43,795 nt of DNA from an uncultured Bacteroidaceae bacterium. GTDB taxonomy: Bacteria > Bacteroidota > Bacteroidia > Bacteroidales > P3. The notes under the pieces are model-generated. The model did not search any database, was not told where the DNA came from, and worked only from the letters and a program-made list of their open reading frames with translations. The first letter of the stretch is position 1. Each line of letters starts with the position of its first letter. Both the position numbers and the translations under genes were made by a program. The stretch covers positions 4,658 through 48,452 of the forward strand of contig CAZVEO010000001.1 of assembly GCA_964626385.1 (NCBI GenBank), in the 5' to 3' direction. This document shows positions 8,012 through 43,371 of this stretch, in pieces.

Positions 8012-9472
8012 TTAAAGTTTAGCAAGTATGCCTTCCAATTTTTCCATTATTTTATCTTGGTCAGCTTTAATAGGAAGATTTACAGGTTTTATCATATTCT
8101 CAGGGGCGAAGATAGTATCCAAATCTTCTTTTGAAAGAATATTGTTTTCCAATGCTATTTCATAAACACCTTTACCTGTTTTCTTTGCTATTTTAGCAAT
8201 TCTTGTAGAATTTTTGTAACCAATATAAGGGTTCAAAGCGGTAACAGTACCTATAGCCTTAGCAATAAAGTTTCTGCAATTTTCCTCATCTGCCTCTATG
8301 CCGTCTATACAAAGAGTTCTAAGAGTATCAAAACCATTTGTCAACAAGTTGATAGACTCAAACAAGCAATAAACAGCAACTGGTTCCATAACGTTAAGTT
8401 CCAATTGTGCGTTCTCACTTGCCAACATAACGGCGGTGTCATTACCTATTACTTTGTAGCAAAGTTGGTTCATAACCTCTGGTATAACAGGGTTAACTTT
8501 GCCTGGCATAATAGAAGAACCTGGTTGCATTTCTGGCAAATGTATTTCTGCCAAACCACATCTTGGACCGCTACCCATCAAACGCAAGTCGTTGCATATT
8601 TTTATTGCTCTAAGAGCAGTACGTTTCAATTCGCTGGACAAACCAACCAAAGCAGAAGTATCTGGAGTAGCCTCTATTAAGTTTTCAGCCAAAGTAACAT
8701 CCCAACCAGTGATATCTCTAAGAGCCTTAATACATAATTCTGAATAGCCCGGCTCTGCACAAATTCCTGTACCTATTGCAGTGGCACCCATATTAACCTC
8801 AAGCAAATGTTTTCTTACAGCCTCTACATCTTTTGCAGCTTTTCTCATCATAGTTGCAAATGCTCCAAAACTTTGTCCCAAAGTCATAGGAACACCGTCT
8901 TGCAACTGAGTTCTACCCATCTTAACGATGTTTTTGAACTCATCAGCTTTCTTTTCCAAAGAAGCAGCACAATCGTTGATTGCTTTTATCAATTTCTCAG
9001 TCTCCAAATATAAACCAAAGTGGAAACCTGTTGGATAAGCATCATTAGTAGATTGAGAAGCGTTAGAATGGTCGTTAGGTGAACAATATTTATACTCTCC
9101 TGGTTTGTGTCCCATTATTTGCAATGCACGGTTAGCAATAACTTCATTGGCATTCATATTAACCGTTGTACCTGCTCCACCTTGTATCATATCGCTAAGG
9201 AAGTATTGGTCAAGTTTGCCTTCTTTCATTTCTTCGCAAGCCTGAACCATAGCCTTAAATTGCTCATCAGTCAATTTGCCTTGTGCGTGATTTGCTATTG
9301 CTGCTCCGTGTTTGGTGATAGCAAAACCTTTAATAAAATTAGGATAGGCATTCATAGGAACACCAGAAATTTTAAAATTGTTGAATCCTCTAAGAGATTG
9401 TACTCCATACAATGCATCTACAGGCACATTAAGTTCGCCTATTAAATCGCTTTCTTTTCTAAAATCTGCCAT
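8012..9472 (-). CDS. aspA: Aspartate ammonia-lyase
   Basis: 486 aa. Fumarase/aspartase superfamily signature loop GSSIMPGKVNP. Overall length and N-terminus fit aspartase. Confidence 0.9.
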   Translation of the reverse strand: MADFRKESDLIGELNVPVDALYGVQSLRGFNNFKISGVPMNAYPNFIKGFAITKHGAAIANHAQGKLTDEQFKAMVQACEEMKEGKLDQYFLSDMIQGGAGTTVNMNANEVIANRALQIMGHKPGEYKYCSPNDHSNASQSTNDAYPTGFHFGLYLETEKLIKAINDCAASLEKKADEFKNIVKMGRTQLQDGVPMTLGQSFGAFATMMRKAAKDVEAVRKHLLEVNMGATAIGTGICAEPGYSELCIKALRDITGWDVTLAENLIEATPDTSALVGLSSELKRTALRAIKICNDLRLMGSGPRCGLAEIHLPEMQPGSSIMPGKVNPVIPEVMNQLCYKVIGNDTAVMLASENAQLELNVMEPVAVYCLFESINLLTNGFDTLRTLCIDGIEADEENCRNFIAKAIGTVTALNPYIGYKNSTRIAKIAKKTGKGVYEIALENNILSKEDLDTIFAPENMIKPVNLPIKADQDKIMEKLEGILAKL

Positions 9473-14916: not shown

Positions 14917-16008
14917 ATGAAAAAGATTATTTTTTTCTGTGCAATGTTATGCACAATATTAAGTGTAAAATCACAATGTCTCTGGACATATGTTCCATGC
15001 AATGAGGATACATTGAACATGAGACAATATGAGGATCGGTATTTATTTAATTACTGTCGTAGAGAAGGTTTAAATTTAGATGTTATCTTACCATCAGAAC
15101 AAAATATATCAGATGATGCTTTTGAAGTAGTATATGGGCTTATTCGTCCTTATACTGTCCTACAATATCCTTATAATATTATAACAGATTATGCCCAACC
15201 GTATATTGTAGATACTGCAATAACTATTGCAGGGGTGTCAGGTTATGTTTTTCATAATTTTGATATTATACATAGAGATAAGTATCAGTGTTATAAATGG
15301 TATTTTGAAATATGGGACTCTACTCTTACTAATATACTACGTTCTGTTGATATTACAGACACAAGTGGCGAAAGATATCATTTTCAAACACCTTATTATA
15401 CAGAAGTATTTTTTGATGAACCTCTAACAATATCTGGTAAATTCTATGTAGTATACCACACTCCTGACACATTAAATATAGAATGCCCAATTATCTATTC
15501 TTCTGCTCCTATCGGTGTTGGTGGTAATGTGATGGGAACATCTGTATGTTCTCCTATAACAGAACTACATCCTTTAGTAACTACTTGGAGCGATGGTAAA
15601 ATAGATGACGGCATAAGGACATGGAGTTATATTGGAAAGGAGAAAAATGTTTTTACAGGCGAATCTGAGGGTGATACTATTACTATGTTGTATTTATTCC
15701 CTATTCTTGCGGATACAACAAACGGAGGAGTCACTAGTTCTGATACAACCACTTCTAGTTTGGAAAATATTAATGGTTTAGAATCGATTAGAGTTTTTCC
15801 TAATCCTGCGGAAAATGAAGTAAATATAAATAGTGGTTATAGAATAGAGAGAATATTTTTATATGATGAGAGTAGCAAACTTTTACAAGAAAAAGAAGTA
15901 AAAGCCTATAACTGCAAAATAGATTTGCATTCCTATCCTCAAGGCTCCTACCTGCTAAAAGTCCAAACCACCAAAAACCAAACCACCCACAAAATAATAA
16001 GACAATAG
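14917..16008 (+). CDS. T9SS C-terminal sorting domain-containing secreted protein
   Basis: 363 aa with a signal peptide. The C-terminal ~80 aa (IRVFPNPAENEVNI...GSYLLKVQT) fit the type A Por-secretion sorting domain pattern. Confidence 0.75.
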   Translation: MKKIIFFCAMLCTILSVKSQCLWTYVPCNEDTLNMRQYEDRYLFNYCRREGLNLDVILPSEQNISDDAFEVVYGLIRPYTVLQYPYNIITDYAQPYIVDTAITIAGVSGYVFHNFDIIHRDKYQCYKWYFEIWDSTLTNILRSVDITDTSGERYHFQTPYYTEVFFDEPLTISGKFYVVYHTPDTLNIECPIIYSSAPIGVGGNVMGTSVCSPITELHPLVTTWSDGKIDDGIRTWSYIGKEKNVFTGESEGDTITMLYLFPILADTTNGGVTSSDTTTSSLENINGLESIRVFPNPAENEVNINSGYRIERIFLYDESSKLLQEKEVKAYNCKIDLHSYPQGSYLLKVQTTKNQTTHKIIRQ

Positions 16009-23089: not shown

Positions 23090-25126
23090 ATGGCAACAAC
23101 AAATAAAAGCATAGAGGAACGCATAGAAGATATTGCAAAAAGCAACTTAACAAATATCAAAGTAAAATATTATGCAAAAACAGACGGTATAAATGATGAG
23201 ATAGATGAGGCTTTAGCAAAGGCACCAAGCAAATCAGGAGGTAAAGGCAAGAACTACCCAGATATAAAAGTGTTATTGCAAACCAAAGATATGAAGTATT
23301 TGCCTGTGATGATAGAGGTTAAAGGACGAAAGGGAGATTTGATAAAAGTCAATGAAGAGGGGTTGATTGATAACTTAAAAAAAGATAAAACGCCTAACTA
23401 TAAAAATATAACAAAATATGCTGTCAATGGTGCTGTGCATTATGCAGAGGCTATAATAAGAAATACAGAAACATATAAAGAAGTTATTGCCATAGGTATA
23501 AATGGTTATGAGGAGAATAAACAATACAAAACAGAATTGGGAGTTTATTTTCTCTCGCAAGAAAATTTTCTTGTACCTAAAAAGATAGATAATTTTACGG
23601 ACTTATCTTTTCTTAGCAAAGATTATGAAGACACTTTGATGGAAAAGATAAAGAATTTGTCTTTAACTGATGAGGAGTTAGAAAGAAAAGCCAAAGAGTT
23701 TGAAAACGAGATAGAAGTAAAACTCAAAGCTCTTAATCAACAAATGCACGATGTTTATAATATTTCTGTTGGTTCTCGTGTGCAATTGGTTTGCGGAATG
23801 ATAATGGCAGGTTTGGGGGTAAAGGATAAGGTCTCACCTCTTGCAATTACAGACTTAAAAGGAGAAAGCGGAGAAAACTCAAATGACGGAGCAATAATTA
23901 TAAATAAAATATCGGACTTTCTTAACGAAAAACGTTTGCCAAAAGAAAAGAGAGAGATGATTATAAGAGATTTAAAACAAGTATTTATTTCCTCAAATCT
24001 TTGGCGTGCAACTGACGGAGAAAGCAAACTTAAAAATGTTTATGCTACTGTCAAAAAAGATATTATGCCAATATTCACTTCTGCCAAGCATCTTGATTTC
24101 ACGGGTAAATTATTTAATGTTCTTAATGCTTGGGTGGATATTCCTGATAGTGAAAGAAATGACGTTGTGCTTACTCCTCGTTATGTTACAGACTTAATGG
24201 CAAAGATAGCAGGAGTAAATATGGATTCATACGTTTGGGATTATGCTGTGGGTAGTGCAGGTTTTCTTATCTCTTCTATGAAACTTATGCTTAAAGATGC
24301 TGAGCAGAGAATAAAATCACAAAAAGAATTTTCTCAAAAAGTAAGGGATATAAAATGCAAACAGTTGCTCGGTATTGAAAAACGTGCTGATATTTATATG
24401 CTTGCCGTGTTGAATATGATACTTATGGAAGACGGCTCAGCAAATATTCTTCACATGGATTCATTAACCGAATTTGACGGCAACTATGAACAAGGAGAAA
24501 TGAAAGGCAAAGAATTTCCTGCAAATGTATTTTTGCTTAACCCTCCTTATTCGGCAGAAGGTAAAGGTTTTGTTTTTGTGGAAAAAGCCTTGCAAAGAAT
24601 GAAACAAGGTAGAGCAGTTGTCCTTATACAAGAAAATGCTGGAAGTGGCAACGGCTTACCTTACACACAAGACCTTTTAAAGAGAAATACTCTTGTTGCT
24701 TCCATACACATGTCCGATATTTTTTATGGTAAGGCTGGAGTGCAAACGGCTATTTATGTTTTTAACATAGGCATACCTCACAACGAAAAACAATTAGTAA
24801 AATTTATCAACTTTGCTAATGACGGATATACAAGACAAAACCGCAAAAAGTCTTCACAAGACACCAACCTAAAAAACACCGACCACGCCATGGAAAGATA
24901 CGAAGAGGTCGCTAATCTTGTCTTGTATGGTAAGAAATATTTGCATTATCTTTTAGAGGAGGATTATATTGAAGACACTATAACACTTAACGGTAATGAT
25001 TGGACTTTTTCTCAACACAGAAAGATAGATACCATTCCAACCGAAGCGGATTTTAGAAAAGTTGTAAAAGATTATCTTTCTTGGAAAGTGTCAAACGTAA
25101 TAAAACAAGAAGGCGAAAATTTTTAG
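23090..25126 (+). CDS. BcgIA-like Type IIB restriction-modification subunit (N-terminal PD-ExK-like nuclease fused to a gamma-class N6-adenine methyltransferase)
   Basis: 678 aa. YPDIKV...MIEVKG resembles a PD...ExK nuclease core. TPRYVTDLM, VWDYAVGSAGFL (AdoMet motif I) and LLNPPY (motif IV) follow in HsdM/BcgIA order. No HsdR-like gene nearby. Confidence 0.7.
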   Translation: MATTNKSIEERIEDIAKSNLTNIKVKYYAKTDGINDEIDEALAKAPSKSGGKGKNYPDIKVLLQTKDMKYLPVMIEVKGRKGDLIKVNEEGLIDNLKKDKTPNYKNITKYAVNGAVHYAEAIIRNTETYKEVIAIGINGYEENKQYKTELGVYFLSQENFLVPKKIDNFTDLSFLSKDYEDTLMEKIKNLSLTDEELERKAKEFENEIEVKLKALNQQMHDVYNISVGSRVQLVCGMIMAGLGVKDKVSPLAITDLKGESGENSNDGAIIINKISDFLNEKRLPKEKREMIIRDLKQVFISSNLWRATDGESKLKNVYATVKKDIMPIFTSAKHLDFTGKLFNVLNAWVDIPDSERNDVVLTPRYVTDLMAKIAGVNMDSYVWDYAVGSAGFLISSMKLMLKDAEQRIKSQKEFSQKVRDIKCKQLLGIEKRADIYMLAVLNMILMEDGSANILHMDSLTEFDGNYEQGEMKGKEFPANVFLLNPPYSAEGKGFVFVEKALQRMKQGRAVVLIQENAGSGNGLPYTQDLLKRNTLVASIHMSDIFYGKAGVQTAIYVFNIGIPHNEKQLVKFINFANDGYTRQNRKKSSQDTNLKNTDHAMERYEEVANLVLYGKKYLHYLLEEDYIEDTITLNGNDWTFSQHRKIDTIPTEADFRKVVKDYLSWKVSNVIKQEGENF

Positions 25127-25770
25127 ATAGCCCACGCTCAAACAATAAACTTCCAAAAGCGTGGGCATACAAAGAATATCAAATAGGAGGTGAAAAAGGA
25201 TTATTTACATCACGAACAGGAAATTTTGATATTCAGAAGAAACATCTTAATGGAAAAGGCTATTATGTCGTAAGTTCTGGTGAACAGAACAATGGTATTG
25301 TTGGCAAAACAGATGCTAATGCCCTAGTTATAGAAGAAAATACTATAACGGTTGATATGTTTGGTAATGTATATTTTAGAGACCATAAATACAAAATGGT
25401 TACACACGCTCGTGTATTTACACTTGAATTTAAAAGAAGAGAATTGTCTAAAGAAATAGGAATGTACCTTGTTGCACAAATGCAATATTTTAGACAAAAG
25501 TTTTCCTATAGCAATATGGCAAGTTTTGAAAAAATTAAAAATACTACTATTTTACTTCCTATTACTCGTAGCGGAGAAATAGATTTTGCTTTTATGGAGC
25601 AATATATTCGCGAGCTTGAACTCGCTCGTATTCGCGAGCTTGAATTATTTCTAAAAGTTTGTGGATTTAATGATTGCACACTAAACAAAGAAGAACTTTC
25701 AGCAATAGAAAAATTCCGTATGGGGGGGGGGGGAAAAGGGGAAAGAATATCAAATAGATACGCTGCTTGA
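25081..25770 (+). CDS. Specificity (S) subunit, 5' segment: TRD1 plus central helix, ending out of frame after the G12 tract
   Basis: The frame opens at 25057 inside the upstream gene. There is no in-frame ATG before TRD1; the only canonical candidate is TTG 25081. KLPKAWAYKEYQIG and LLPITRSGEIDFAFMEQYIRELE are HsdS/BcgIB-like. Confidence 0.7.
   Translation: MESVKRNKTRRRKFLDSPRSNNKLPKAWAYKEYQIGGEKGLFTSRTGNFDIQKKHLNGKGYYVVSSGEQNNGIVGKTDANALVIEENTITVDMFGNVYFRDHKYKMVTHARVFTLEFKRRELSKEIGMYLVAQMQYFRQKFSYSNMASFEKIKNTTILLPITRSGEIDFAFMEQYIRELELARIRELELFLKVCGFNDCTLNKEELSAIEKFRMGGGGKGERISNRYAA
25722..25733 (+). repeat. Homopolymeric G12 tract inside the S gene (candidate slipped-strand phase-variation site)
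   Basis: 12 consecutive G. The upstream S frame and the downstream TRD2 frame differ by one nucleotide across it. Confidence 0.9.
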
Positions 25771-26278
25771 AAAAGTTAATTGTAAAAAATTAAAATATAA
25801 AGTAGGCGACCTTCCAAAACACCCTACATACGATTACAATTTACCTTGCCTTACATCGGGGACAAATAATCAGGGGTTATCCTGCTATGTACCAAAAGAA
25901 GAAGCAACTATATTAAAAGATGTTATAAGTATTGCATCAAACGGAAGTGCTGGCACAACATACTACCAAGACGATGAATTTACAATTTTGCAAGATGCAT
26001 ATGCTGTTAAATCAAAAAATATAAATTTAACAAAAGAACAATATTTGTACTTGGTAGCAACTATAAATAAACTTACATTGAAGAAATTTTCTTGGACAAA
26101 TAAAGCAGGTTGGCATAAGGTAGCAAAAGAAAAATTTTATCTTCCCGTTTCTGAAAACGGAGAAATAGATTTTGATTTTATGCAGGTGTATATTCGTGCC
26201 ATAGAGAAGCAAGTAATAAAGCACGTTATAGACTGGAAGGACAAAGAAATAGCAGAGACGAAGAAGATATGTAAGTAA
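25733..26278 (+). CDS. Specificity (S) subunit, 3' segment: TRD2 plus distal helix, out of frame with the 5' segment in this sequence
   Basis: The frame after the tract reads EKGKEYQIDTLLEKVNCKKLKYKVGDLP...FYLPVSENGEIDFDFMQVYIRAIE. This parallels the TRD1 start (KEYQI) and end (GEIDF.FM..YIR). The 25988 ORF in the track is its tail. Confidence 0.7.
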   Translation, partial: EKGKEYQIDTLLEKVNCKKLKYKVGDLPKHPTYDYNLPCLTSGTNNQGLSCYVPKEEATILKDVISIASNGSAGTTYYQDDEFTILQDAYAVKSKNINLTKEQYLYLVATINKLTLKKFSWTNKAGWHKVAKEKFYLPVSENGEIDFDFMQVYIRAIEKQVIKHVIDWKDKEIAETKKICK

Positions 26279-36354: not shown

Positions 36355-39300
36355 ATGAGAAGAGTTTATTTTTTGTTAATACTTTTAATTATGAGTATTA
36401 GTGGATGGTCGCAGAGTACAGAAGTGACCATAGGAAATGGTGGTAGTACAAGTTTGTATGTACCAACGGGATTGTTTTACAAAAACAGTGCCTCACAAAT
36501 TATTTACCTACAAAGTGAGATAAATACTTCTGGCTATATTGCAGCAATAAGTTTTAAAAACAACTATTCCTCTTCTGATACAAATATTAGAAATATCAGA
36601 GTCTATATGGCTACAACACAACAGAGTGAGTTTGCTACAACTTCTTCGTATCTGTCTTTGGATAGCACTAATTTAGTGTATGAGGGTGCTTGGGTTATAA
36701 CTTATGGGCAGTGGTCGGAAATAGTTCTTGATAATCCTTTTTACTATGATAATACAAGTAATTTGGTTATAGGAATTGAGGACTTTACAGGCTGGTATCC
36801 CGGCAATAATAGATATTGGGAAACTTCCTCAGGTACCAATAGATGTTTGTACAAAAGCTATGACTCAAGCCCTGTTAATATAACTTTTGATGGTTATACA
36901 CCTTCTAAGGCTAATAATTTTCCTAATGTAAAAATGACTTTGGTGCAAAATATATCAGACTATTGTTATGCTCCTCGTAATATAAGACTTGTAGATACAA
37001 CCACTTCTTCTGCTACTATTACTTGGGCTAGTGATGATAATGCTTCTTCGTTTTATTATCAACTAAAACCTTCTACGGATTCTTGGGATGAAAATGGATA
37101 TATAAGTACTACGGATACAATTGTTGTTTTTAGTGATTTGCAAGCGGCAACAACATACGATTTTAGAATATACACTGATTGTGGAATTTCTTCGCAATCT
37201 ACTACAAAAACAATTTCTTTTTCCACCGCTTGTGCTTTGATAGACTCTGTTCCTTATACTTGGAACTTTGAAGCCAACAACACAGGAGGTACAACCACTT
37301 ATCCTTTACCTGCTTGTTGGGACAGAGTGGGTTCTTACCCTTATTCTTATACCTCTACAACTCATGCTGTTAGTGGTAGTAAGGTATTGTATTTTTTTGC
37401 AAATAATAGGTATGGTATACTTCCACAAATAGATACAGATAATTTGCCAATAAACACTTTGCAAATTTCTTTTTATGCAAAAAAGGGTACTGCTACGGGT
37501 AATAATATTCAAGTGGGTGTTATGACAAATATTGCAGATACTTCTACTTTTGTACCTGTTGCAACTTTGGATTTAACCACAAACTATAGGTATTATGACG
37601 TGTCTTTGGAAGAGTATAGTGGAGACGGACAATTTATTGCTATAAAAACATATGGAACAAGTTCATCAGGATACACATATGTAGATGATGTAACCTTAAC
37701 GCTTGCTCCAGATTGCTCGCGTCCTACAGAGGTTAGTATAATGCCTTCTGCTTATGAATTTAGTGCAACGTGGAAATCTACAGCAACTAACTTCGAAATC
37801 TATTACAAGCAAAGTTCAGATGCAACTTATCAAGTAACACATAATTATTCAGAAAATCAACAAGATTCAACATGGAGTGTAACTATTTCGGATGAAATTA
37901 CTCCTAATACCAATTATGATTTTTATATAAAGGCTATTTGTAATGATGGTACTGAGTTGCTTTCGCAAACTTTTAGTTTTACTACATCATGTGTTGCTTT
38001 GGATGTTCCTTATACAATGGACTTTGAAAGCGTAGCTGTTGGAGAGCGTCCTTCATGTTGGTCATTTCTCAATAGCACCTCAACAGGTTTTCCTTACGTA
38101 TCATCGTCTTCTTACAGAGGACATAATTCCGCTAAGGGTTTGGAATTTCGTTCTACATCATCGGTCTCTACGGCTTCTATTGCTATAATGCCAGAATTTA
38201 CAGAGAATATAACCAATCTTTCTGTTGAATTTTGGTCAAAACCCGAATCAAATCCTGCAACTAATAGTTACTCTTCTGGTCGTTTGGAAGTGGGTTATGT
38301 AACCAATCCTTTGGATGCAAGCAGTTTTGTAATGTTAGATTCCATTAGTGTCTATACACTTGAAGACAGTACTTACCACAAATACAGAGTTAATTTTGAT
38401 AACATAGATTTGGGTGATGCCACTACAGGATATATTGCTTTTAGGCACGTATCTAATGGTAATTATTATTGGTATTTGGATGATGTAACAGTAGAGTTAG
38501 TGCCTGATTGCCAAGAGCCCGATCATTTAAATGTAGAGAGTTTTGCTGCTAATAGCGTAGAACTTTCTTGGCAATCAACACAAGAAACTTTAAATCTTTT
38601 ATACAAAGACACCTCATCTGTAGATTGGATAACAATAGAAAACGTATCTTTAAATGAGGACAGTGTGTACGTTTTACAAAACCTATCTCCTAATACAACA
38701 TATCAATGGAAGTTGAGTTTTGTTTGTGCTTCCGATGATGAGACTTATACATCGGAAACAAAACAATTTACAACAGAATGTGTGGGAATAACCACTTTGC
38801 CAATGACTTGGGATTTTGAATCGGGCAATACAGCAGGAACTACATCTAATCCTTTACCTGGATGTTGGAAAAGAATAGGTACAACTTACCCTAGGGTTTA
38901 TTCTTCTTCAACCTATGCACATCAAGGCTCTTATTCTTTGTATTTTAGTGGAAATAGTAAATATGCTATACTTCAACCTATAGATACAACAGTATTGCCA
39001 ATAAATACTCTACAACTTTCATTCTATGCATCACGCAATTCTTATGCTAACAATATTCAAGTAGGTGTTATGACAGACCCTACAGATACAAACACATTTG
39101 TAATTGTAGATACATTTAACATAACTACTTTATATAAACTTTATCAGGTAAGTTTTGCTCTATATCAAGGAACGGGTGAGTATATTGCTTTAAGGTCATA
39201 CGGTAGTAGTAGTGCCTCTATTTATGTTGACGATATGACTTTGGACGTTATTCCTTCTTGTTCTGAGCCAATGAATTTGGATGTAACAGTATCTTCCAAC

Positions 39301-42300
39301 AGTGTAGATGTTACATGGACATCAACAGGTAATGATTTTATTATTTACTATAAAGAAAATGGTGCTTCAGATTATCAGACAACAACAAGTTTTACTGCCT
39401 TAGAGCAAAGTGGCAGTTGGACTGCTACTATTTCCGACCTTACTTCTGCAACTAATTATAACCTATACATTGAGGCTCTTTGTAGTGAAGAGAATATAAG
39501 TTCGGAGACCGTTGTCTTTATGACTTCCTGCATGGCTATTAGTACAGTTCCTAAAACATGGGATTTTGAAACAGCCGATAATAGTTTAGAAACATATCCT
39601 ATGCCTCTTTGCTGGACAAGAATAGGTAACTCTACTACCTATCCTTATTCATTTAGTTATTCTTCAGCTTATTCTGGTTCTCGTGTTTTGTATTTCTCAG
39701 GTACAGACGGAAGATATGCTGTGCTTCCACAAATAGATACTAATGCATTATCATTAAACACATTGCAACTTTCTTTCTATGCAAAGAAGAGCTCTGATGT
39801 TTATAATACAAAAATTCAAGTGGGAATTATGAGTAGCCCTATAGATACTAATAATATAACCCTTGTTTCTTCTATTGATTTGACTACAGATTGGCTTCGA
39901 TATGAAATACCATTCTCTTCATTCTCGGGTTATGGTCAATACATTGTTTTAGAAGAAATATCTGCTTTTTCTGCCTCTGCATACGTAGACCTTATGACCT
40001 TGGAGGCTATTCCTTCTTGTTCTCGTCCAAATGAATTAATGGCTACAAATGTTTTGGAAAATCAAGCAACTATTACTTGGATATCAACAGGAAACAACTT
40101 TGAGGTTTATTATAAACAAAGTTATGATTCTGTTTATACAATGACAACCGATTTTACCTCTTCTACAGAGGATAATAATTGGCAAATAACTCTTAACAAC
40201 TTACAATCTTCTACTAATTATGATATATATGTAAAAGTTATTTGTGAAGACAATTATGAGGATTTCTCCAATGTCTTAACCTTTGCCTCTTCTTGTGCTG
40301 TGATAACCACGGTACCTCAAGATTGGGACTTTGAAACATATGGAAACAACAAAACCATATCATATTCATTACCTCTTTGCTGGACAAGAACAGGACTAAC
40401 TCCTACAACCTATCCTTACTCTTATACTACTGCAGCCAATGCTGTTAGTGGTAGTGGAGTTTTGTATTTTTATGGAAAAAATAAATATGCGGTGCTTCCA
40501 CAGATAGATACCAATATATTACCAATAAACACACTACAACTTTCCTTCTATGCAAAAACAACTTCAACAACCTTTAATGCTTTGCAAGTTGGCGTTATGA
40601 CTGACCCTATGGATACTAATACATTTACACTTATTTCTTCCATACAAATAAACAATAATACTCAAATCACATATGATATTCCTCTTGCCTCATACACAGG
40701 AATAGGAGAATACATTGCTATAAGGTCATATGGTAGTAATACTTCTGCAACTATTTATTTGGATGATTTGCACTTAAGTATTATTCCTACATGTACTCGT
40801 CCGACAAATATAACTGCAACAACCACCGAGCAGCAAGCAACGATTACTTGGAAATCTACAAGCAATAATTTTGAAATCTATTACAAAAAGTGTGAGGATG
40901 AGACTTATACAATGATAACTAACTTCTCTGCAGGTGTATTAGACAGCACTTGGACAACTACTATAACTGACCTTAACCCTGCAACAAACTATGATTTATA
41001 TATTAAGACAACTTGTAGTGATAATACAGAGTTTGAGTCAAATATGTTCTCATTTTCTACCTCTTGTGTGGCAATAAGTACTGTTCCTCAAACTTGGGAT
41101 TTTGAAGCCTGCGGTAATACTATAGAAACTTATCCTTTGCCACTTGGGTGGACAAGAACAGGCTCATCATCTACACAATACCCATACTCCTACACTTCCT
41201 CTTCTTATGCTACTAGTGGAACGAAGACTTTGTATTTTTATGGAAGGAAACAATATGCGGTGCTTCCTCAAATAGATACAAATCAATTACCATTGAACAC
41301 TTTACAACTTTCCTTCTATGGCAAAAGAGGTACCACCGCAGGTAATACCATACAAGTAGGAATTATGACAAATCCTACAGATACCAATACTTTTACACTT
41401 ATATCCAACTTAACATTAACGACTACTCATTTTTATTATGAAGTACCTTTAACCTCTTATGCGGGAACTGGTGGATATATAGCCATTAGGTATTATGGTA
41501 GTAGTACTTCTGCGACTGCGTATTTGGATGATGTAACTTTGGAAATTGCTCCTGCTTGTACTCGTCCTGCAATACTAACAGTAACACCTTCTACTGAAGA
41601 AGTTACTCTTACTTGGAAGTCTTCAGCAGATAATTTTGAAATTTATTATAAGGAAGCGTCTGATTCTATTTACGAAAACACTTCGGATTTTACTGCTACA
41701 ACACAAGATAGTATTTGGACATCAAATCTTTTTGGTCTTACCCCTGCTACTAAATATGATATCTATGTAAAGGCTATATGCGATGATAATTCGGAAGTAA
41801 ATTCATTTGTTTCCTCATTCCGTACTCTATGTTTGGAGGTTTCAGAATTTCCTTATACAGAGGATTTTGAACAATTGTCAGAAACAGATTTGGGATGCTG
41901 GACAAATGAAAATATTTCTGGTTCTACTTCTTGGACAATAAAAACTTCCTCTGTGGGTAAAGTTGCCTATAGAAGTTATACCACTGGTGCAAAATCCCGT
42001 TTGATTTCTCCTATTTTTGATATTACTTCATTATCTCAGCCTAAACTTTCTTATAATTGGGAAGTATGTAGTAGTGGTAACAATTTGGATTCCTTGTATG
42101 TTTATTATAGAACAAATGTTGGAAATGAATGGGTGCTTTTGACTTCACATGGTTCAAGTTATAGTGGAAACAATACCTCTTACACTGCTTCACAATTTGA
42201 TAGTATAATGCTTCCAGATGCAAGCGAAACTTATCAAATAGCTTTTCTTGCTGTTGGTCATAATGGTTATGGAGTATATTTGGATAATGTAGTTGTTAGC

Positions 42301-43371
42301 GATGATGATGGTAGTGTTGTTACTCCTGTTGAGCCTACGGTTGCGACAAATGTTGCTACGAATATTGCACAGACTTCAGTTACTCTTAACGGAACAATAA
42401 CCGATGCAGGCAACCAAACAATTACTGCCAAAGGTTTTGAGTGGAAAGCAACCAACGGAGGCACATACGCTCAACTACTTTCCTCTGATGCAGGCAATAC
42501 TTTTACCTATAATCTTACTAACTTGACGGCAAATACTTCATACACATACAGAGCCTTTGCCACCACAGCCAATGGTACTGTTTATGGAGCAGAAGTAGTA
42601 TTTACTACATTAGAAGCAGGCGAAGAACCTTGCACACCTGTTACAGCAAGTATTACTGAGACTTTGTGTTATGGAGAAACATTCACGTTTAACGGACAGA
42701 CCTATAACGCTACTGGTACATACCAAACGACCGTTGCAGGACAAAACGGAGATTGTGACACCAACTACACAATTAACCTAACTATCTTGCCTCAAAATAC
42801 AGCAAGTATTACTGAGACTTTGTGTAATGGTGAGACATTCACATTTAACGGACAGACCTATAACGCTACTGGTACATACCAAACGACCGTTGCAGGACAA
42901 AACGGAGATTGTGATACCAACTACACAATTAATCTTACCATTTTGCCACAAAATGCTCCAATAAACGATGAGGTTACAATTTCTCAAAGTGAGTTACCTT
43001 ATGAGTATCACGGACAAACATATAATGACTTTGGTACTTATAGCGTAACCTTGCAAGATGAGAATGGTTGCGACCAAGTTTATAACCTTACTCTTGTACA
43101 TAATTCAGGTATTGCAGAAGTTGAGGAAGAATTGACTATTAGTTTATATCCGAACCCAACTGATAACAATGCTACATTAAGAGTTAAAGGCTTAAATGAG
43201 CAAGCGACAATAATAATCACCGACCAACAAGGAAGAGTGATACAGACAAAAGTTTTGCCACAAGGCACAGAGACTTTTGAGATAGAGAGCGAAAGACTTG
43301 CGAGCGGAGTTTATTATATAAGAATACAAACCACTAACACAATAAGAACCGAAAAACTTATTAAAAAATAG
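36355..43371 (+). CDS. Giant modular T9SS-secreted surface protein (MAM/choice-of-anchor-J-like plus FN3-like modules, Cys-rich repeats, T9SS sorting domain)
   Basis: 2338 aa with signal peptide MRRVYFLLILLIMSISGWSQ. Six ~255-aa modules (TWDFE...CW.R.G...YAVLPQIDTN.LP.NTLQLSFYAK...YLDDVTL..P.C.RP then ...TW.ST.NNFEIYYK...TNYD.YIK..C). C-terminal LYPNPTDNNATLRV...GVYYIRIQT sorting domain. Confidence 0.85.
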   Translation: MRRVYFLLILLIMSISGWSQSTEVTIGNGGSTSLYVPTGLFYKNSASQIIYLQSEINTSGYIAAISFKNNYSSSDTNIRNIRVYMATTQQSEFATTSSYLSLDSTNLVYEGAWVITYGQWSEIVLDNPFYYDNTSNLVIGIEDFTGWYPGNNRYWETSSGTNRCLYKSYDSSPVNITFDGYTPSKANNFPNVKMTLVQNISDYCYAPRNIRLVDTTTSSATITWASDDNASSFYYQLKPSTDSWDENGYISTTDTIVVFSDLQAATTYDFRIYTDCGISSQSTTKTISFSTACALIDSVPYTWNFEANNTGGTTTYPLPACWDRVGSYPYSYTSTTHAVSGSKVLYFFANNRYGILPQIDTDNLPINTLQISFYAKKGTATGNNIQVGVMTNIADTSTFVPVATLDLTTNYRYYDVSLEEYSGDGQFIAIKTYGTSSSGYTYVDDVTLTLAPDCSRPTEVSIMPSAYEFSATWKSTATNFEIYYKQSSDATYQVTHNYSENQQDSTWSVTISDEITPNTNYDFYIKAICNDGTELLSQTFSFTTSCVALDVPYTMDFESVAVGERPSCWSFLNSTSTGFPYVSSSSYRGHNSAKGLEFRSTSSVSTASIAIMPEFTENITNLSVEFWSKPESNPATNSYSSGRLEVGYVTNPLDASSFVMLDSISVYTLEDSTYHKYRVNFDNIDLGDATTGYIAFRHVSNGNYYWYLDDVTVELVPDCQEPDHLNVESFAANSVELSWQSTQETLNLLYKDTSSVDWITIENVSLNEDSVYVLQNLSPNTTYQWKLSFVCASDDETYTSETKQFTTECVGITTLPMTWDFESGNTAGTTSNPLPGCWKRIGTTYPRVYSSSTYAHQGSYSLYFSGNSKYAILQPIDTTVLPINTLQLSFYASRNSYANNIQVGVMTDPTDTNTFVIVDTFNITTLYKLYQVSFALYQGTGEYIALRSYGSSSASIYVDDMTLDVIPSCSEPMNLDVTVSSNSVDVTWTSTGNDFIIYYKENGASDYQTTTSFTALEQSGSWTATISDLTSATNYNLYIEALCSEENISSETVVFMTSCMAISTVPKTWDFETADNSLETYPMPLCWTRIGNSTTYPYSFSYSSAYSGSRVLYFSGTDGRYAVLPQIDTNALSLNTLQLSFYAKKSSDVYNTKIQVGIMSSPIDTNNITLVSSIDLTTDWLRYEIPFSSFSGYGQYIVLEEISAFSASAYVDLMTLEAIPSCSRPNELMATNVLENQATITWISTGNNFEVYYKQSYDSVYTMTTDFTSSTEDNNWQITLNNLQSSTNYDIYVKVICEDNYEDFSNVLTFASSCAVITTVPQDWDFETYGNNKTISYSLPLCWTRTGLTPTTYPYSYTTAANAVSGSGVLYFYGKNKYAVLPQIDTNILPINTLQLSFYAKTTSTTFNALQVGVMTDPMDTNTFTLISSIQINNNTQITYDIPLASYTGIGEYIAIRSYGSNTSATIYLDDLHLSIIPTCTRPTNITATTTEQQATITWKSTSNNFEIYYKKCEDETYTMITNFSAGVLDSTWTTTITDLNPATNYDLYIKTTCSDNTEFESNMFSFSTSCVAISTVPQTWDFEACGNTIETYPLPLGWTRTGSSSTQYPYSYTSSSYATSGTKTLYFYGRKQYAVLPQIDTNQLPLNTLQLSFYGKRGTTAGNTIQVGIMTNPTDTNTFTLISNLTLTTTHFYYEVPLTSYAGTGGYIAIRYYGSSTSATAYLDDVTLEIAPACTRPAILTVTPSTEEVTLTWKSSADNFEIYYKEASDSIYENTSDFTATTQDSIWTSNLFGLTPATKYDIYVKAICDDNSEVNSFVSSFRTLCLEVSEFPYTEDFEQLSETDLGCWTNENISGSTSWTIKTSSVGKVAYRSYTTGAKSRLISPIFDITSLSQPKLSYNWEVCSSGNNLDSLYVYYRTNVGNEWVLLTSHGSSYSGNNTSYTASQFDSIMLPDASETYQIAFLAVGHNGYGVYLDNVVVSDDDGSVVTPVEPTVATNVATNIAQTSVTLNGTITDAGNQTITAKGFEWKATNGGTYAQLLSSDAGNTFTYNLTNLTANTSYTYRAFATTANGTVYGAEVVFTTLEAGEEPCTPVTASITETLCYGETFTFNGQTYNATGTYQTTVAGQNGDCDTNYTINLTILPQNTASITETLCNGETFTFNGQTYNATGTYQTTVAGQNGDCDTNYTINLTILPQNAPINDEVTISQSELPYEYHGQTYNDFGTYSVTLQDENGCDQVYNLTLVHNSGIAEVEEELTISLYPNPTDNNATLRVKGLNEQATIIITDQQGRVIQTKVLPQGTETFEIESERLASGVYYIRIQTTNTIRTEKLIKK
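42646..42957 (+). repeat. Two near-identical 156-nt (52-aa) tandem repeats inside the giant gene, followed by a diverged third copy to ~43113
   Basis: ASITETLC(Y/N)GETFTFNGQTYNATGTYQTTVAGQNGDCDTNYTINLTILPQN occurs twice. The DNA copies differ at roughly a dozen positions. Confidence 0.9.

What the first reader, a model, noticed from the sequence alone, without database searches (positions are those of the whole stretch)
25722..25733. G12 homopolymer splits the specificity gene exactly between its two recognition domains
The frame carrying TRD1 runs into the G12 tract and stops 37 nt later at 25768-25770. TRD2 is intact in the frame offset by one nucleotide. Losing one G (G11) or gaining two (G14) gives a continuous ~398-aa S protein reading ...EKFRMGGGEKGKEYQIDTLLEK.... 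Such tracts are classic slipped-strand phase-variation switches. A poly-G tract in hsdS that alters specificity is known for the NgoAV Type I system of Neisseria gonorrhoeae. Truncated single-TRD S proteins of Type I systems are known to act as dimers on palindromic sites. The switch could therefore toggle between two methylation and restriction specificities rather than simply on and off. I am not aware of this being described for a Type IIB system in Bacteroidota.
Basis: partly seen in the sequence, partly recalled or inferred. Interest (0 to 1): 0.78.

Follow-up and report, generated by a model that had tools for sequence, protein, structure and literature searches.

The report
Poly-G switch in restriction specificity gene

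Summary
G12 at 25722-25733 is the only G/C run of 7 or more in 43.8 kb. It frameshifts the S gene between TRD1-CR1 and TRD2-CR2, and G11 or G14 would give a 398-aa S protein. The system is a two-gene BcgI-like (Type IIB-like) RM+S pair in a Bacteroidota chromosome.

Related contigs carry the tract at the same codon position with different lengths. G8 is in frame; G9 and G12 are out of frame. Two alleles with 100% identical TRD2 DNA differ by one G. The out-of-frame TRD2 is under strong purifying selection (dN/dS about 0.12), so this is a live switch and not decay.

The tract position is shared by homologues in Mucispirillum, Bacillota-type contigs and H. pylori. The H. pylori RM protein is 34.5% identical to the window's.

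The mechanism is not new. In H. pylori HpyUM032XIII (Lee 2015), G12 splits S1 from S2, RM+S1 alone methylates a palindrome, and G11 fuses them and changes the specificity. Krebes 2014 reported G13/G14 variation in HP1471.

Verdict: a new member of a known kind, apparently the first noted in Bacteroidota. Interest is moderate to low.

The parts
23090..25126 (+). RM (A) subunit gene, 678 aa. It has an N-terminal PD-(D/E)XK nuclease motif (P57-D58 ... E76-V-K78) and a gamma-class N6-adenine methyltransferase (GSAGF at 388, NPPY at 484).
   Evidence: Pfam N6_Mtase E 1.1e-15 and a weak VRR_NUC hit. Motif positions. 29% identity over 83% of its length to the Staphylococcus phage phi-42 protein; the same protein is annotated 'bcgIA protein' in phage phiSabovST1. 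34.5% identity, E 1e-107, to the H. pylori RM protein of locus L059.
25081..25770 (+). S1 reading frame as it stands with G12: TTG start overlapping A by 46 nt, then TRD1, the CR1 helix, a linker helix, the Gly run and a 12-residue out-of-frame tail (KGERISNRYAA), 229 aa in all.
   Evidence: The same TTG start is present in L001, L002 and L060. P0007 from L001 is a 230-aa truncated orthologue, 92% identical.
25606..25644 (+). Two copies of attcgcgagcttgaa spaced 24 nt apart, coding the CR1 repeat IRELELAR / IRELELFL.
   Evidence: Read. Homologues have two or three such 8-aa units (P0144 has three). This is analogous to the TAEL/LEAT repeats of Type I CR1 discussed.
25722..25733 (+). G12 homopolymer, the putative slipped-strand switch. 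It codes the Gly-Gly(-Gly) loop between the linker helix and the first strand of TRD2.
   Evidence: The position is homologous to tracts in L001, L002, L005, L021, L051, L059, L060-L064 and L066-L068; in L015 and L065 the tract lies slightly earlier in the same linker. The AF2 model of the in-frame allele P0004 places residues 218-222 (GGVKY; Met217 closes the preceding helix) in a loop between helix 207-217 and strand 223-227.
25768..25770 (+). Premature TGA that ends the S1 frame.
25709..26278 (+). +1 frame carrying TRD2-CR2 (cryptic S2). It joins to S1 only with G11 or G14 and has no start codon of its own before 25988.
   Evidence: There are 177 codons without stops or indels in all six alleles. 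dN/dS is 0.11-0.13 against alleles L001, L002, L060, L061 and L062.

Best explanation
The locus is a two-gene BcgI-like (Type IIB-like) restriction-modification system: an RM fusion protein plus an HsdS-like specificity subunit. It is inserted among housekeeping genes of a Bacteroidota chromosome.

The S gene carries a hypermutable poly-G tract in the loop between TRD1-CR1 and TRD2-CR2. Slipped-strand mispairing during replication changes the tract length.

With G11 or G14, a 398-aa S protein with two TRDs is made. It should direct the (RM)2S enzyme to an asymmetric bipartite site (TRD1 half-site, spacer, TRD2 half-site).

With G12 (the state in this assembly) or G13, only S1 is made (TRD1 plus the complete CR1 helix). 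By analogy with HpyUM032XIII and NgoAV, two S1 molecules pair through CR1 and direct the enzyme to a palindromic site made of two TRD1 half-sites.

The tract therefore acts as a reversible specificity switch for methylation, and probably for restriction, rather than a simple on/off switch.

Shown here:
- the tract, the frames and the domain boundaries;
- homology to the H. pylori system;
- length polymorphism among relatives;
- selection on TRD2.

Inferred:
- that switching happens in this strain;
- that S1 dimerises and is active;
- that cleavage is of the Type IIB kind.
For: 1. Anatomy: as listed under parts.

2. Length polymorphism at the homologous site in the same clade:
- Window: G12, out of frame.
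- L001: G9, out of frame; 91% nt identity over the whole 3.2-kb A-S locus.
- L060 and L061: G9, out of frame.
- L062: G9, out of frame.
- L002: G8, in frame, giving the 401-aa P0004.
- L005: G9, in frame.

3. L001 and L002 have 100% identical DNA over the 545 nt downstream of the tract, yet differ by one G and therefore in frame.

4. TRD2 shows dN/dS of 0.11-0.13 and no stops over 177 codons between the window and five other alleles, four of which are out of frame like the window. TRD2 must therefore be translated at least intermittently.

5. Natural single-chain S proteins with the window's TRD1 type in both positions exist (P0001, P0002). A TRD1-TRD1 enzyme is therefore viable.

6. The S1 product keeps the whole CR1 helix (residues 173-197 in the P0004 model).

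7. The same tract position is seen in other lineages: Mucispirillum L015 (G10, out of frame), contigs L063/L064 (G9), L065 (G11) and L066-L068 (G10), and H. pylori L059 (G9). TRD2 is intact in all of these except L059.

8. Experimental precedent in the homologous H. pylori family. In HpyUM032XIII, G12 splits S1 from S2; RM+S1 methylates the palindrome CYAN7TRG; G11 fuses them and gives CYAN7TTC (PMC4450513). HP1471/JHP1364 tracts of G13 versus G14 differ between laboratory stocks (PMC3936762). NgoAV and the REBASE survey of hsdS repeats are in PMC7383803.
Against: - No reads are available, so neither the true tract length in this genome nor within-population heterogeneity is known. A G12 call is error-prone on long-read platforms.
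- Among tracts of 9 or more, most alleles found are out of frame (about 10 of 12). This fits random length (two thirds expected) but also fits a stably split gene. My look-ups by half-size proteins bias the sample towards split alleles.
- L066, L067 and L068 share G10, but they were retrieved through an identical S1 protein, which forces equal length.
- Activity of S1 alone is inferred from a 34.5%-identical relative and is not tested.
- A specificity switch creates unmethylated new sites and a risk of self-restriction. How that is tolerated is unknown.
Confidence: 0.65

Rival explanations
1. The tract is an ON/OFF switch only. The truncated S1 is inactive or unstable, so G12 silences recognition by the whole system and only the G11/G14 form works.
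For: Krebes 2014 found both H. pylori 26695 and J99 systems inactive in the wild type, and HP1471/HP1472 stayed inactive even after repair. Most SSR switches in RM genes are on/off.
Against: The closest experimental case (HpyUM032XIII, also G12) is active with S1 alone, both in the native genome and in E. coli. S1 here keeps the full CR1. Split alleles predominate among relatives, which would be odd if the split state simply meant loss of defence.
Confidence: 0.17
2. Homopolymer miscall or assembly artefact. The real genome has G11 (or G14) and a plain intact S gene.
For: Twelve-base homopolymers are often miscounted by nanopore, PacBio CLR and 454 reads. The platform of this assembly is unknown to me. 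The fix needs only one base.
Against: Independent assemblies of public runs carry out-of-frame tracts at the same site (L001, L060, L061, L062, L015, L063-L068, L059). A split state is therefore common in nature. Even if the count were wrong, a tract of 11 or more G in a 34% GC genome with 4.8% GGG usage remains a contingency locus.
Confidence: 0.1
3. Fixed frameshift and gene decay. The S gene is a pseudogene and TRD2 is a remnant.
For: Non-homopolymer frameshifts in the same linker exist in relatives (L006/L022). The H. pylori L059 TRD2 has an extra stop, leaving only 116 open codons.
Against: TRD2 here has 177 codons without stops or indels and dN/dS about 0.12 across roughly 17% nt divergence. 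A and S1 are intact. The lesion sits in a reversible homopolymer.
Confidence: 0.04
4. Both proteins are made from one allele. RNA-polymerase slippage or ribosomal +2/-1 frameshifting on the G12 run yields mostly S1 plus a fraction of full-length S, so the cell carries two specificities at once without any DNA change.
For: Long homopolymers are known to promote transcriptional slippage (my own knowledge, not tested here). This would also explain purifying selection on TRD2 in predominantly out-of-frame alleles.
Against: There is no evidence for it in this data set. In HpyUM032XIII the native G12 genome showed only the palindromic motif and not the fused-form motif.
Confidence: 0.04

Closest known systems
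HpyUM032XIII of Helicobacter pylori UM032 (Lee et al. 2015, BMC Genomics, PMC4450513), with Hpy99XXII and HP1471/HP1472 (Krebes et al. 2014, NAR, PMC3936762)
   Same: - A two-gene BcgI-like RM fusion plus S.
- A poly-G tract between S1 (TRD1-CR1) and S2 (TRD2-CR2).
- In UM032 the tract is also exactly G12 in the split state and G11 in the fused state.
- The tract codes the Gly-Gly loop at the same alignment position.
- An H. pylori chromosomal RM protein (L059, 679 aa) is 34.5% identical to the window's 678-aa A over its full length.
- Its S1 TRD is 45% identical to the window's TRD2.
- S has an unusual start and overlaps RM in both systems.
   Different: - Different phylum: Bacteroidota versus Campylobacterota.
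- Different TRDs, so a different and unknown recognition sequence.
- Activity of either form is untested here.
- That L059 is the HP1471/HP1472 locus rests on my own recollection of the 26695 gene order (polA, tmk and coaD as neighbours).
- That HpyUM032XIII is the same orthologous locus is an assumption.
NgoAV Type I system of Neisseria gonorrhoeae (Adamczyk-Poplawska 2011; cited in PMC7383803 and PMC6789123)
   Same: A poly-G tract in the S gene between the TRDs switches between full-length and truncated HsdS with different specificities. Repeat units in CR1 also matter there.
   Different: NgoAV is a classical Type I system with separate HsdM and an HsdR motor. This system has a single RM fusion protein, no helicase-type R subunit and no sequence relationship beyond the Methylase_S fold.
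BcgI, Sau42I and BsaXI (Type IIB RM+S enzymes)
   Same: The gene organisation is A(RM)+B(S). The nuclease motif precedes a gamma-class N6A methyltransferase. The S subunit has an HsdS-like TRD1-CR1-TRD2-CR2 fold.
   Different: These are only distant in sequence: 29% identity to the phage phi-42 protein (Sau42I, by my own knowledge), and no phmmer hit to any PDB chain, BsaXI included. None of the three is reported to have a poly-G tract. Double-sided cleavage is not testable here.
SSR-containing hsdS genes surveyed in REBASE (Atack et al. 2020, PMC7383803)
   Same: The SSR lies between the two TRDs and is predicted to switch between full-length and truncated S. G12 tracts are among the examples.
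   Different: The survey dealt with Type I hsdS. Its main text mentions neither Type IIB nor Bacteroid*.

Membership tests
BcgI-like (Type IIB / RM+S) restriction-modification systems | One polypeptide carries both a PD-(D/E)XK endonuclease domain and a gamma-class N6-adenine methyltransferase domain. | tested here: met
   Pfam N6_Mtase E 1.1e-15. Motifs P57-D58, E76-x-K78, GSAGF388 and NPPY484. tblastn hits to the phage phi-42 protein and to a CDS annotated 'bcgIA protein'. The nuclease domain is supported only by the motif and a sub-threshold VRR_NUC hit.
BcgI-like (Type IIB / RM+S) restriction-modification systems | A separate HsdS-like specificity subunit with two TRDs, encoded next to the RM gene, with no separate HsdR or HsdM. 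| tested here: met
   Methylase_S in two stretches. The AF2 model of the in-frame allele P0004 shows TRD1-CR1-TRD2-CR2, and the top Foldseek hits are HsdS structures 1ydx and 1yf2 and the BsaXI S subunit 8w0p_C. The neighbouring genes are housekeeping or membrane proteins.
BcgI-like (Type IIB / RM+S) restriction-modification systems | Cleavage on both sides of a bipartite recognition site. | not testable with these tools
   This needs biochemistry. Lee 2015 in fact calls the H. pylori relative 'BcgI-like Type IIG'.
H. pylori HP1472/HP1471 (Hpy99XXII, HpyUM032XIII) subfamily with a poly-G-split S | Sequence homology of the RM and S proteins. | tested here: met
   A versus the L059 RM protein: 34.5% identity over 704 alignment columns, E 1e-107. 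H. pylori S proteins P0140, P0141 and P0143 are 44-45% identical to the window's TRD2 half.
H. pylori HP1472/HP1471 (Hpy99XXII, HpyUM032XIII) subfamily with a poly-G-split S | A poly-G tract in the linker between CR1 and TRD2. | tested here: met
   Junction alignment, L059 G9 and the text of the paper.
H. pylori HP1472/HP1471 (Hpy99XXII, HpyUM032XIII) subfamily with a poly-G-split S | S1 alone with RM gives palindromic methylation, and the fused S gives a different asymmetric site. | not testable with these tools
   Shown only for HpyUM032XIII.
Phase-variable (contingency) locus | Tract length differs between closely related strains or cells, giving both in-frame and out-of-frame states. | tested here: met
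   G8 (in frame), G9 and G12 (out of frame) occur in one clade. L001 and L002 have identical downstream DNA and differ by one G. Variation within a population of this strain was not tested.
Phase-variable (contingency) locus | The downstream out-of-frame coding sequence is maintained by selection. | tested here: met
   dN/dS 0.11-0.13 over 177 codons with no stops.

The most novel reading that the evidence does not exclude
The poly-G tract at the CR1-TRD2 junction may be an old, selectively maintained feature of one BcgI-like RM+S family that has spread across at least four phyla: Campylobacterota, Bacteroidota, Deferribacterota and Bacillota. In this reading the usual state is the split S1 form with a palindromic site, and TRD2 is kept as a cryptic reserve domain under purifying selection. 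In gut or rumen Bacteroidales it would be an SSR-driven epigenetic and defence specificity switch. The phase-variable RM system described for Bacteroides fragilis works by DNA inversion instead (PMC7641763).
Probability: 0.4. Interest if true: 0.5.

Novelty: new member of a known kind. Interest (0 to 1): 0.35.

Why it matters
If the switch operates in vivo, this bacterium can alternate between two methylation and restriction specificities. That diversifies phage and plasmid barriers within a clonal population, and it could change gene expression through altered m6A patterns (a phasevarion).

The general principle and this exact architecture are already shown for H. pylori and N. gonorrhoeae. 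The added value is therefore limited to three points:
- an extension to Bacteroidota and other gut or rumen lineages;
- the observation that the tract sits at a homologous codon position across phyla;
- sequence evidence (dN/dS) that the hidden TRD2 is kept functional.

It also has practical use for annotation. Split S1/S2 genes in this family should not be called pseudogenes.

Tried and rejected
- An exact-product look-up of the window's A protein found nothing. The source genome is not in that collection, so no second assembly of the same strain could be compared.
- The metagenome DNA-pattern scan for the tract flank returned only L058. This is a G-rich junk contig with many poly-G runs and no S gene, so it was discarded.
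- phmmer of A and of the fused S against PDB sequences gave no hits. The relation to BsaXI and HsdS is visible only at fold level.
- NCBIfam gave only a sub-threshold MADS2 methyltransferase hit and was uninformative.
- I looked for a spare S cassette, an invertase or a recombinase in the window that could point to inversion-type shuffling. There is none.
- tRNA and Rfam scans of the window were empty.
- The promoter and terminator scan around the locus was no better than shuffled sequence.
- An independent start for TRD2 is rejected. There is no ATG/GTG/TTG in that frame between 25709 and 25988.
- The ungapped identities involving L062 are meaningless because of indel offsets, and I ignored them.
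- I did not obtain the HpyUM032XIII sequence itself (KM875507). Its identity with the L059-type locus is therefore assumed.

Full report
**1. Observation**

The window has G12 at 25722-25733. It is the only G or C run of 7 or more in 43,795 nt of 34% GC DNA. Runs of G9 or longer are expected 0.03 times in dinucleotide-preserving shuffles. GGG is the rarest Gly codon in the window's long ORFs, at 4.8%.

The frame starting at TTG 25081 carries TRD1 and the central conserved region. It passes through the tract and stops at TGA 25768-25770. The +1 frame is open from 25709 to 26278 and carries a second TRD and the distal conserved region. That frame has no ATG/GTG/TTG before 25988, so TRD2 cannot be made independently.

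Removing one G or adding two gives a 398-aa protein reading ...EKFRMGGGEKGKEYQIDTLLEK.... This protein matches Pfam Methylase_S in two stretches.

**2. What the locus is**

Upstream, and overlapping S by 46 nt, lies a 678-aa ORF (23090-25126).
- It has an N6_Mtase domain.
- Its motifs are P57-D58...E76-V-K78 (PD-(D/E)XK type), GSAGF388 and NPPY484.
- It is 29% identical over 83% of its length to a protein of Staphylococcus phage phi-42. A near-identical phage protein is annotated 'bcgIA protein'. By my own knowledge, phi-42 encodes the BcgI-like system Sau42I.

There is no HsdR, no separate HsdM, no invertase and no spare S cassette nearby. The neighbours are housekeeping genes: ffh, folD, dxr, citrate lyase, a 2-oxoacid:ferredoxin oxidoreductase and a Mur ligase.

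Also nearby are a TonB-dependent receptor with a CarboxypepD_reg domain and two proteins with the T9SS C-terminal sorting domain. These place the window in Bacteroidota. The best A homologues among species-representative genomes are Bacteroidales MAGs from rumen, at 83% identity.

An AlphaFold2 model of the natural in-frame allele P0004 has mean pLDDT 84.8 and shows this order of elements:
- TRD1;
- helix 173-197 (CR1);
- short helix 207-217;
- loop 218-222 (GGVKY, after Met217 at the end of the helix);
- TRD2 from 223;
- helix 367-400 (CR2).

Its best structural matches are HsdS proteins 1ydx and 1yf2 and, lower in the list, the BsaXI S subunit. The tract therefore codes a Gly loop exactly at the TRD1-CR1 / TRD2-CR2 boundary.

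**3. Relatives**

The S-protein search found hundreds of full-length 380-415-aa homologues, so the two-TRD form is the family norm. It also found P0007, a 230-aa truncated protein 92% identical to the window's S1.

Alleles of the window's clade:

| Locus | Tract | Frame | Note |
|---|---|---|---|
| window | G12 | out | the finding |
| L001 | G9 | out | 91% nt identity over the whole 3.2-kb A-S locus |
| L002 | G8 | in | A 93.5% identical, different TRD1, 401-aa S |
| L060, L061 | G9 | out | two further samples |
| L062 | G9 | out | different flank |
| L005 | G9 | in | Bacteroidales MAG; tract begins in a CGG codon |

L001 and L002 have 100% identical DNA over the 545 nt after the tract, yet differ by one G. 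That is the signature of a hypermutable tract.

Alleles outside this clade, with a tract at or near the same alignment position:

| Locus | Source | Tract | Frame |
|---|---|---|---|
| L015 | Mucispirillum | G10 | out |
| L063/L064 | unnamed contigs | G9 | out |
| L065 | unnamed contig | G11 | out |
| L066-L068 | unnamed contigs | G10 | out |
| L021 | Oscillospiraceae | G7 | in |
| L051 | Lactobacillaceae | G7 | in |
| L037 | Selenomonas | C7 | out |
| L059 | Helicobacter pylori | G9 | out |

In L015 and L065 the tract lies slightly earlier in the same linker. In most lineages the tract codes a conserved GG(V) motif just before TRD2.

Among 50 species-representative loci with an A homologue, five have a G/C run of 7 or more at this junction.

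**4. Is TRD2 alive?**

The 177-codon TRD2-CR2 frame has no stop or indel in any of the six alleles of the window's clade. Between the window and five other alleles, dN/dS is 0.11-0.13 with dS about 0.7-0.8. Four of those five alleles are out of frame, as is the window itself.

A dead remnant would not show this. TRD2 must be translated often enough to be selected, which fits reversible frame switching. Less likely, it fits slippage during expression.

**5. Would S1 work alone?**

S1 keeps TRD1, the full CR1 helix and the linker helix. Natural single-chain S proteins with the window's TRD1 type in both positions exist (P0001, P0002), so a TRD1-TRD1 enzyme is viable.

The decisive evidence is published (PMC4450513). 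In H. pylori UM032 the BcgI-like system HpyUM032XIII has S1 and S2 separated by a G12 tract.
- RM+S1+S2, or RM+S1 alone, methylates the palindrome CYAN7TRG. The native genome shows the same motif.
- RM+S2 is inactive.
- Shortening G12 to G11 fuses S1 and S2 and changes the site to CYAN7TTC.

Krebes et al. (PMC3936762) had already reported that the S genes HP1471 and JHP1364 of the BcgI-like systems carry a poly-G tract that is G14 in the published genomes and G13 in their stocks.

I retrieved an H. pylori chromosomal locus (L059). Its RM protein is 679 aa and 34.5% identical to the window's A protein over the full length (E 1e-107). Its S1 ends in ...NSGGG at a G9 tract, and its TRD is 45% identical to the window's TRD2.

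Its neighbours (coaD, tmk, polA) match my recollection of the HP1470-HP1475 region of strain 26695. The window's system is therefore a homologue of the H. pylori family, with the tract at the homologous position.

**6. Wider literature**

For Type I systems, NgoAV and a REBASE survey establish the same logic. In the survey 7.8% of hsdS genes have SSRs, 'invariably' between the TRDs, and G12 examples are included (PMC7383803; PMC6789123).

Neither 'Type IIB' nor 'Bacteroid*' occurs in the main text of that survey. My other searches found no description of such a tract in Bacteroidota. The phase-variable RM system described for Bacteroides fragilis works by DNA inversion (PMC7641763, listed).

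**7. Rival explanations**

- On/off only (S1 inactive). This is possible, because HP1471/HP1472 could not be reactivated. The closest G12 case argues against it.
- Homopolymer miscall. This cannot be excluded without reads. Split alleles in many independent assemblies show that the state is natural.
- Pseudogene. This is rejected by dN/dS.
- Expression-level slippage. This is untested, and the single-motif methylome of UM032 does not favour it.

**8. Verdict**

The wider novelty claim is not: this is a new member, in a new phylum, of an experimentally characterised kind of switch.

The modestly new points are the positional conservation of the tract across phyla, the selection evidence for the cryptic TRD2, and the occurrence in Bacteroidota. 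Interest is about 0.35.

Noticed in passing
L033 6138-6145, L034 6138-6145, L047 6132-6139: In three Clostridia MAG relatives a G8 tract lies inside the RM (A) gene. It codes (M/A)GGVGG a few codons (three) before the PD...ExK nuclease motif and is in frame in all three. It could be an on/off tract for the enzyme itself.
   Followed up: partly
P0001/P0002, P0005 (L003 1689-2873), L002 2462-3667: There is extensive TRD shuffling within the family. P0001 and P0002 carry the window's TRD1 type in both positions. P0005 carries the window's TRD2 type in position 1 with an unrelated TRD in position 2. L002 has a different TRD1 but TRD2 DNA identical to L001.
   Followed up: partly
window 25606-25644: The CR1 helix contains a tandem 8-aa (24-nt) repeat, IRELELAR/IRELELFL. 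Homologue P0144 has three such units and P0136 has two ELEAERVA units. This suggests copy-number variation that could set the spacer length, as the TAEL/LEAT repeats do in Type I systems.
   Followed up: no
window 25081-25126: The S gene appears to start at a TTG that overlaps the end of the RM gene by 46 nt. The same TTG is conserved in L001, L002 and L060. The H. pylori paper likewise remarks that S lacks a normal start after the RM stop, which hints at translational coupling.
   Followed up: partly
L006 about 8520-8545 and L022 about 1840-1865: Two Melainabacteria MAGs have the S gene split in the same linker region by an identical 1-nt frameshift that is not in a homopolymer. This may be a true pseudogene or a stably split S.
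   Followed up: partly
L037 8575-8581: A Selenomonas relative has a C7 run (coding Pro-Pro) at the same CR1-TRD2 junction, with the S gene out of frame.
   Followed up: partly
L060 4008-7382: In the related contigs the RM+S pair sits next to a UvrD-type helicase and a tyrosine recombinase/integrase, not the TonB-dependent receptor seen in the window. The two-gene module therefore occupies different genomic contexts and is probably mobile.
   Followed up: no
window 36355-43371 and 14917-16008: A 2338-aa protein with many FN3-like repeats and a second 363-aa protein both end in the T9SS C-terminal sorting domain (Por_Secre_tail). This is a Bacteroidota marker and is unrelated to the finding.
   Followed up: no
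L058 (Ga0179593_1696548): The only metagenome hit to the flank pattern is a contig full of G7-G19 runs with no coherent ORFs. It looks like a sequencing or assembly artefact and is a chance match.
   Followed up: yes
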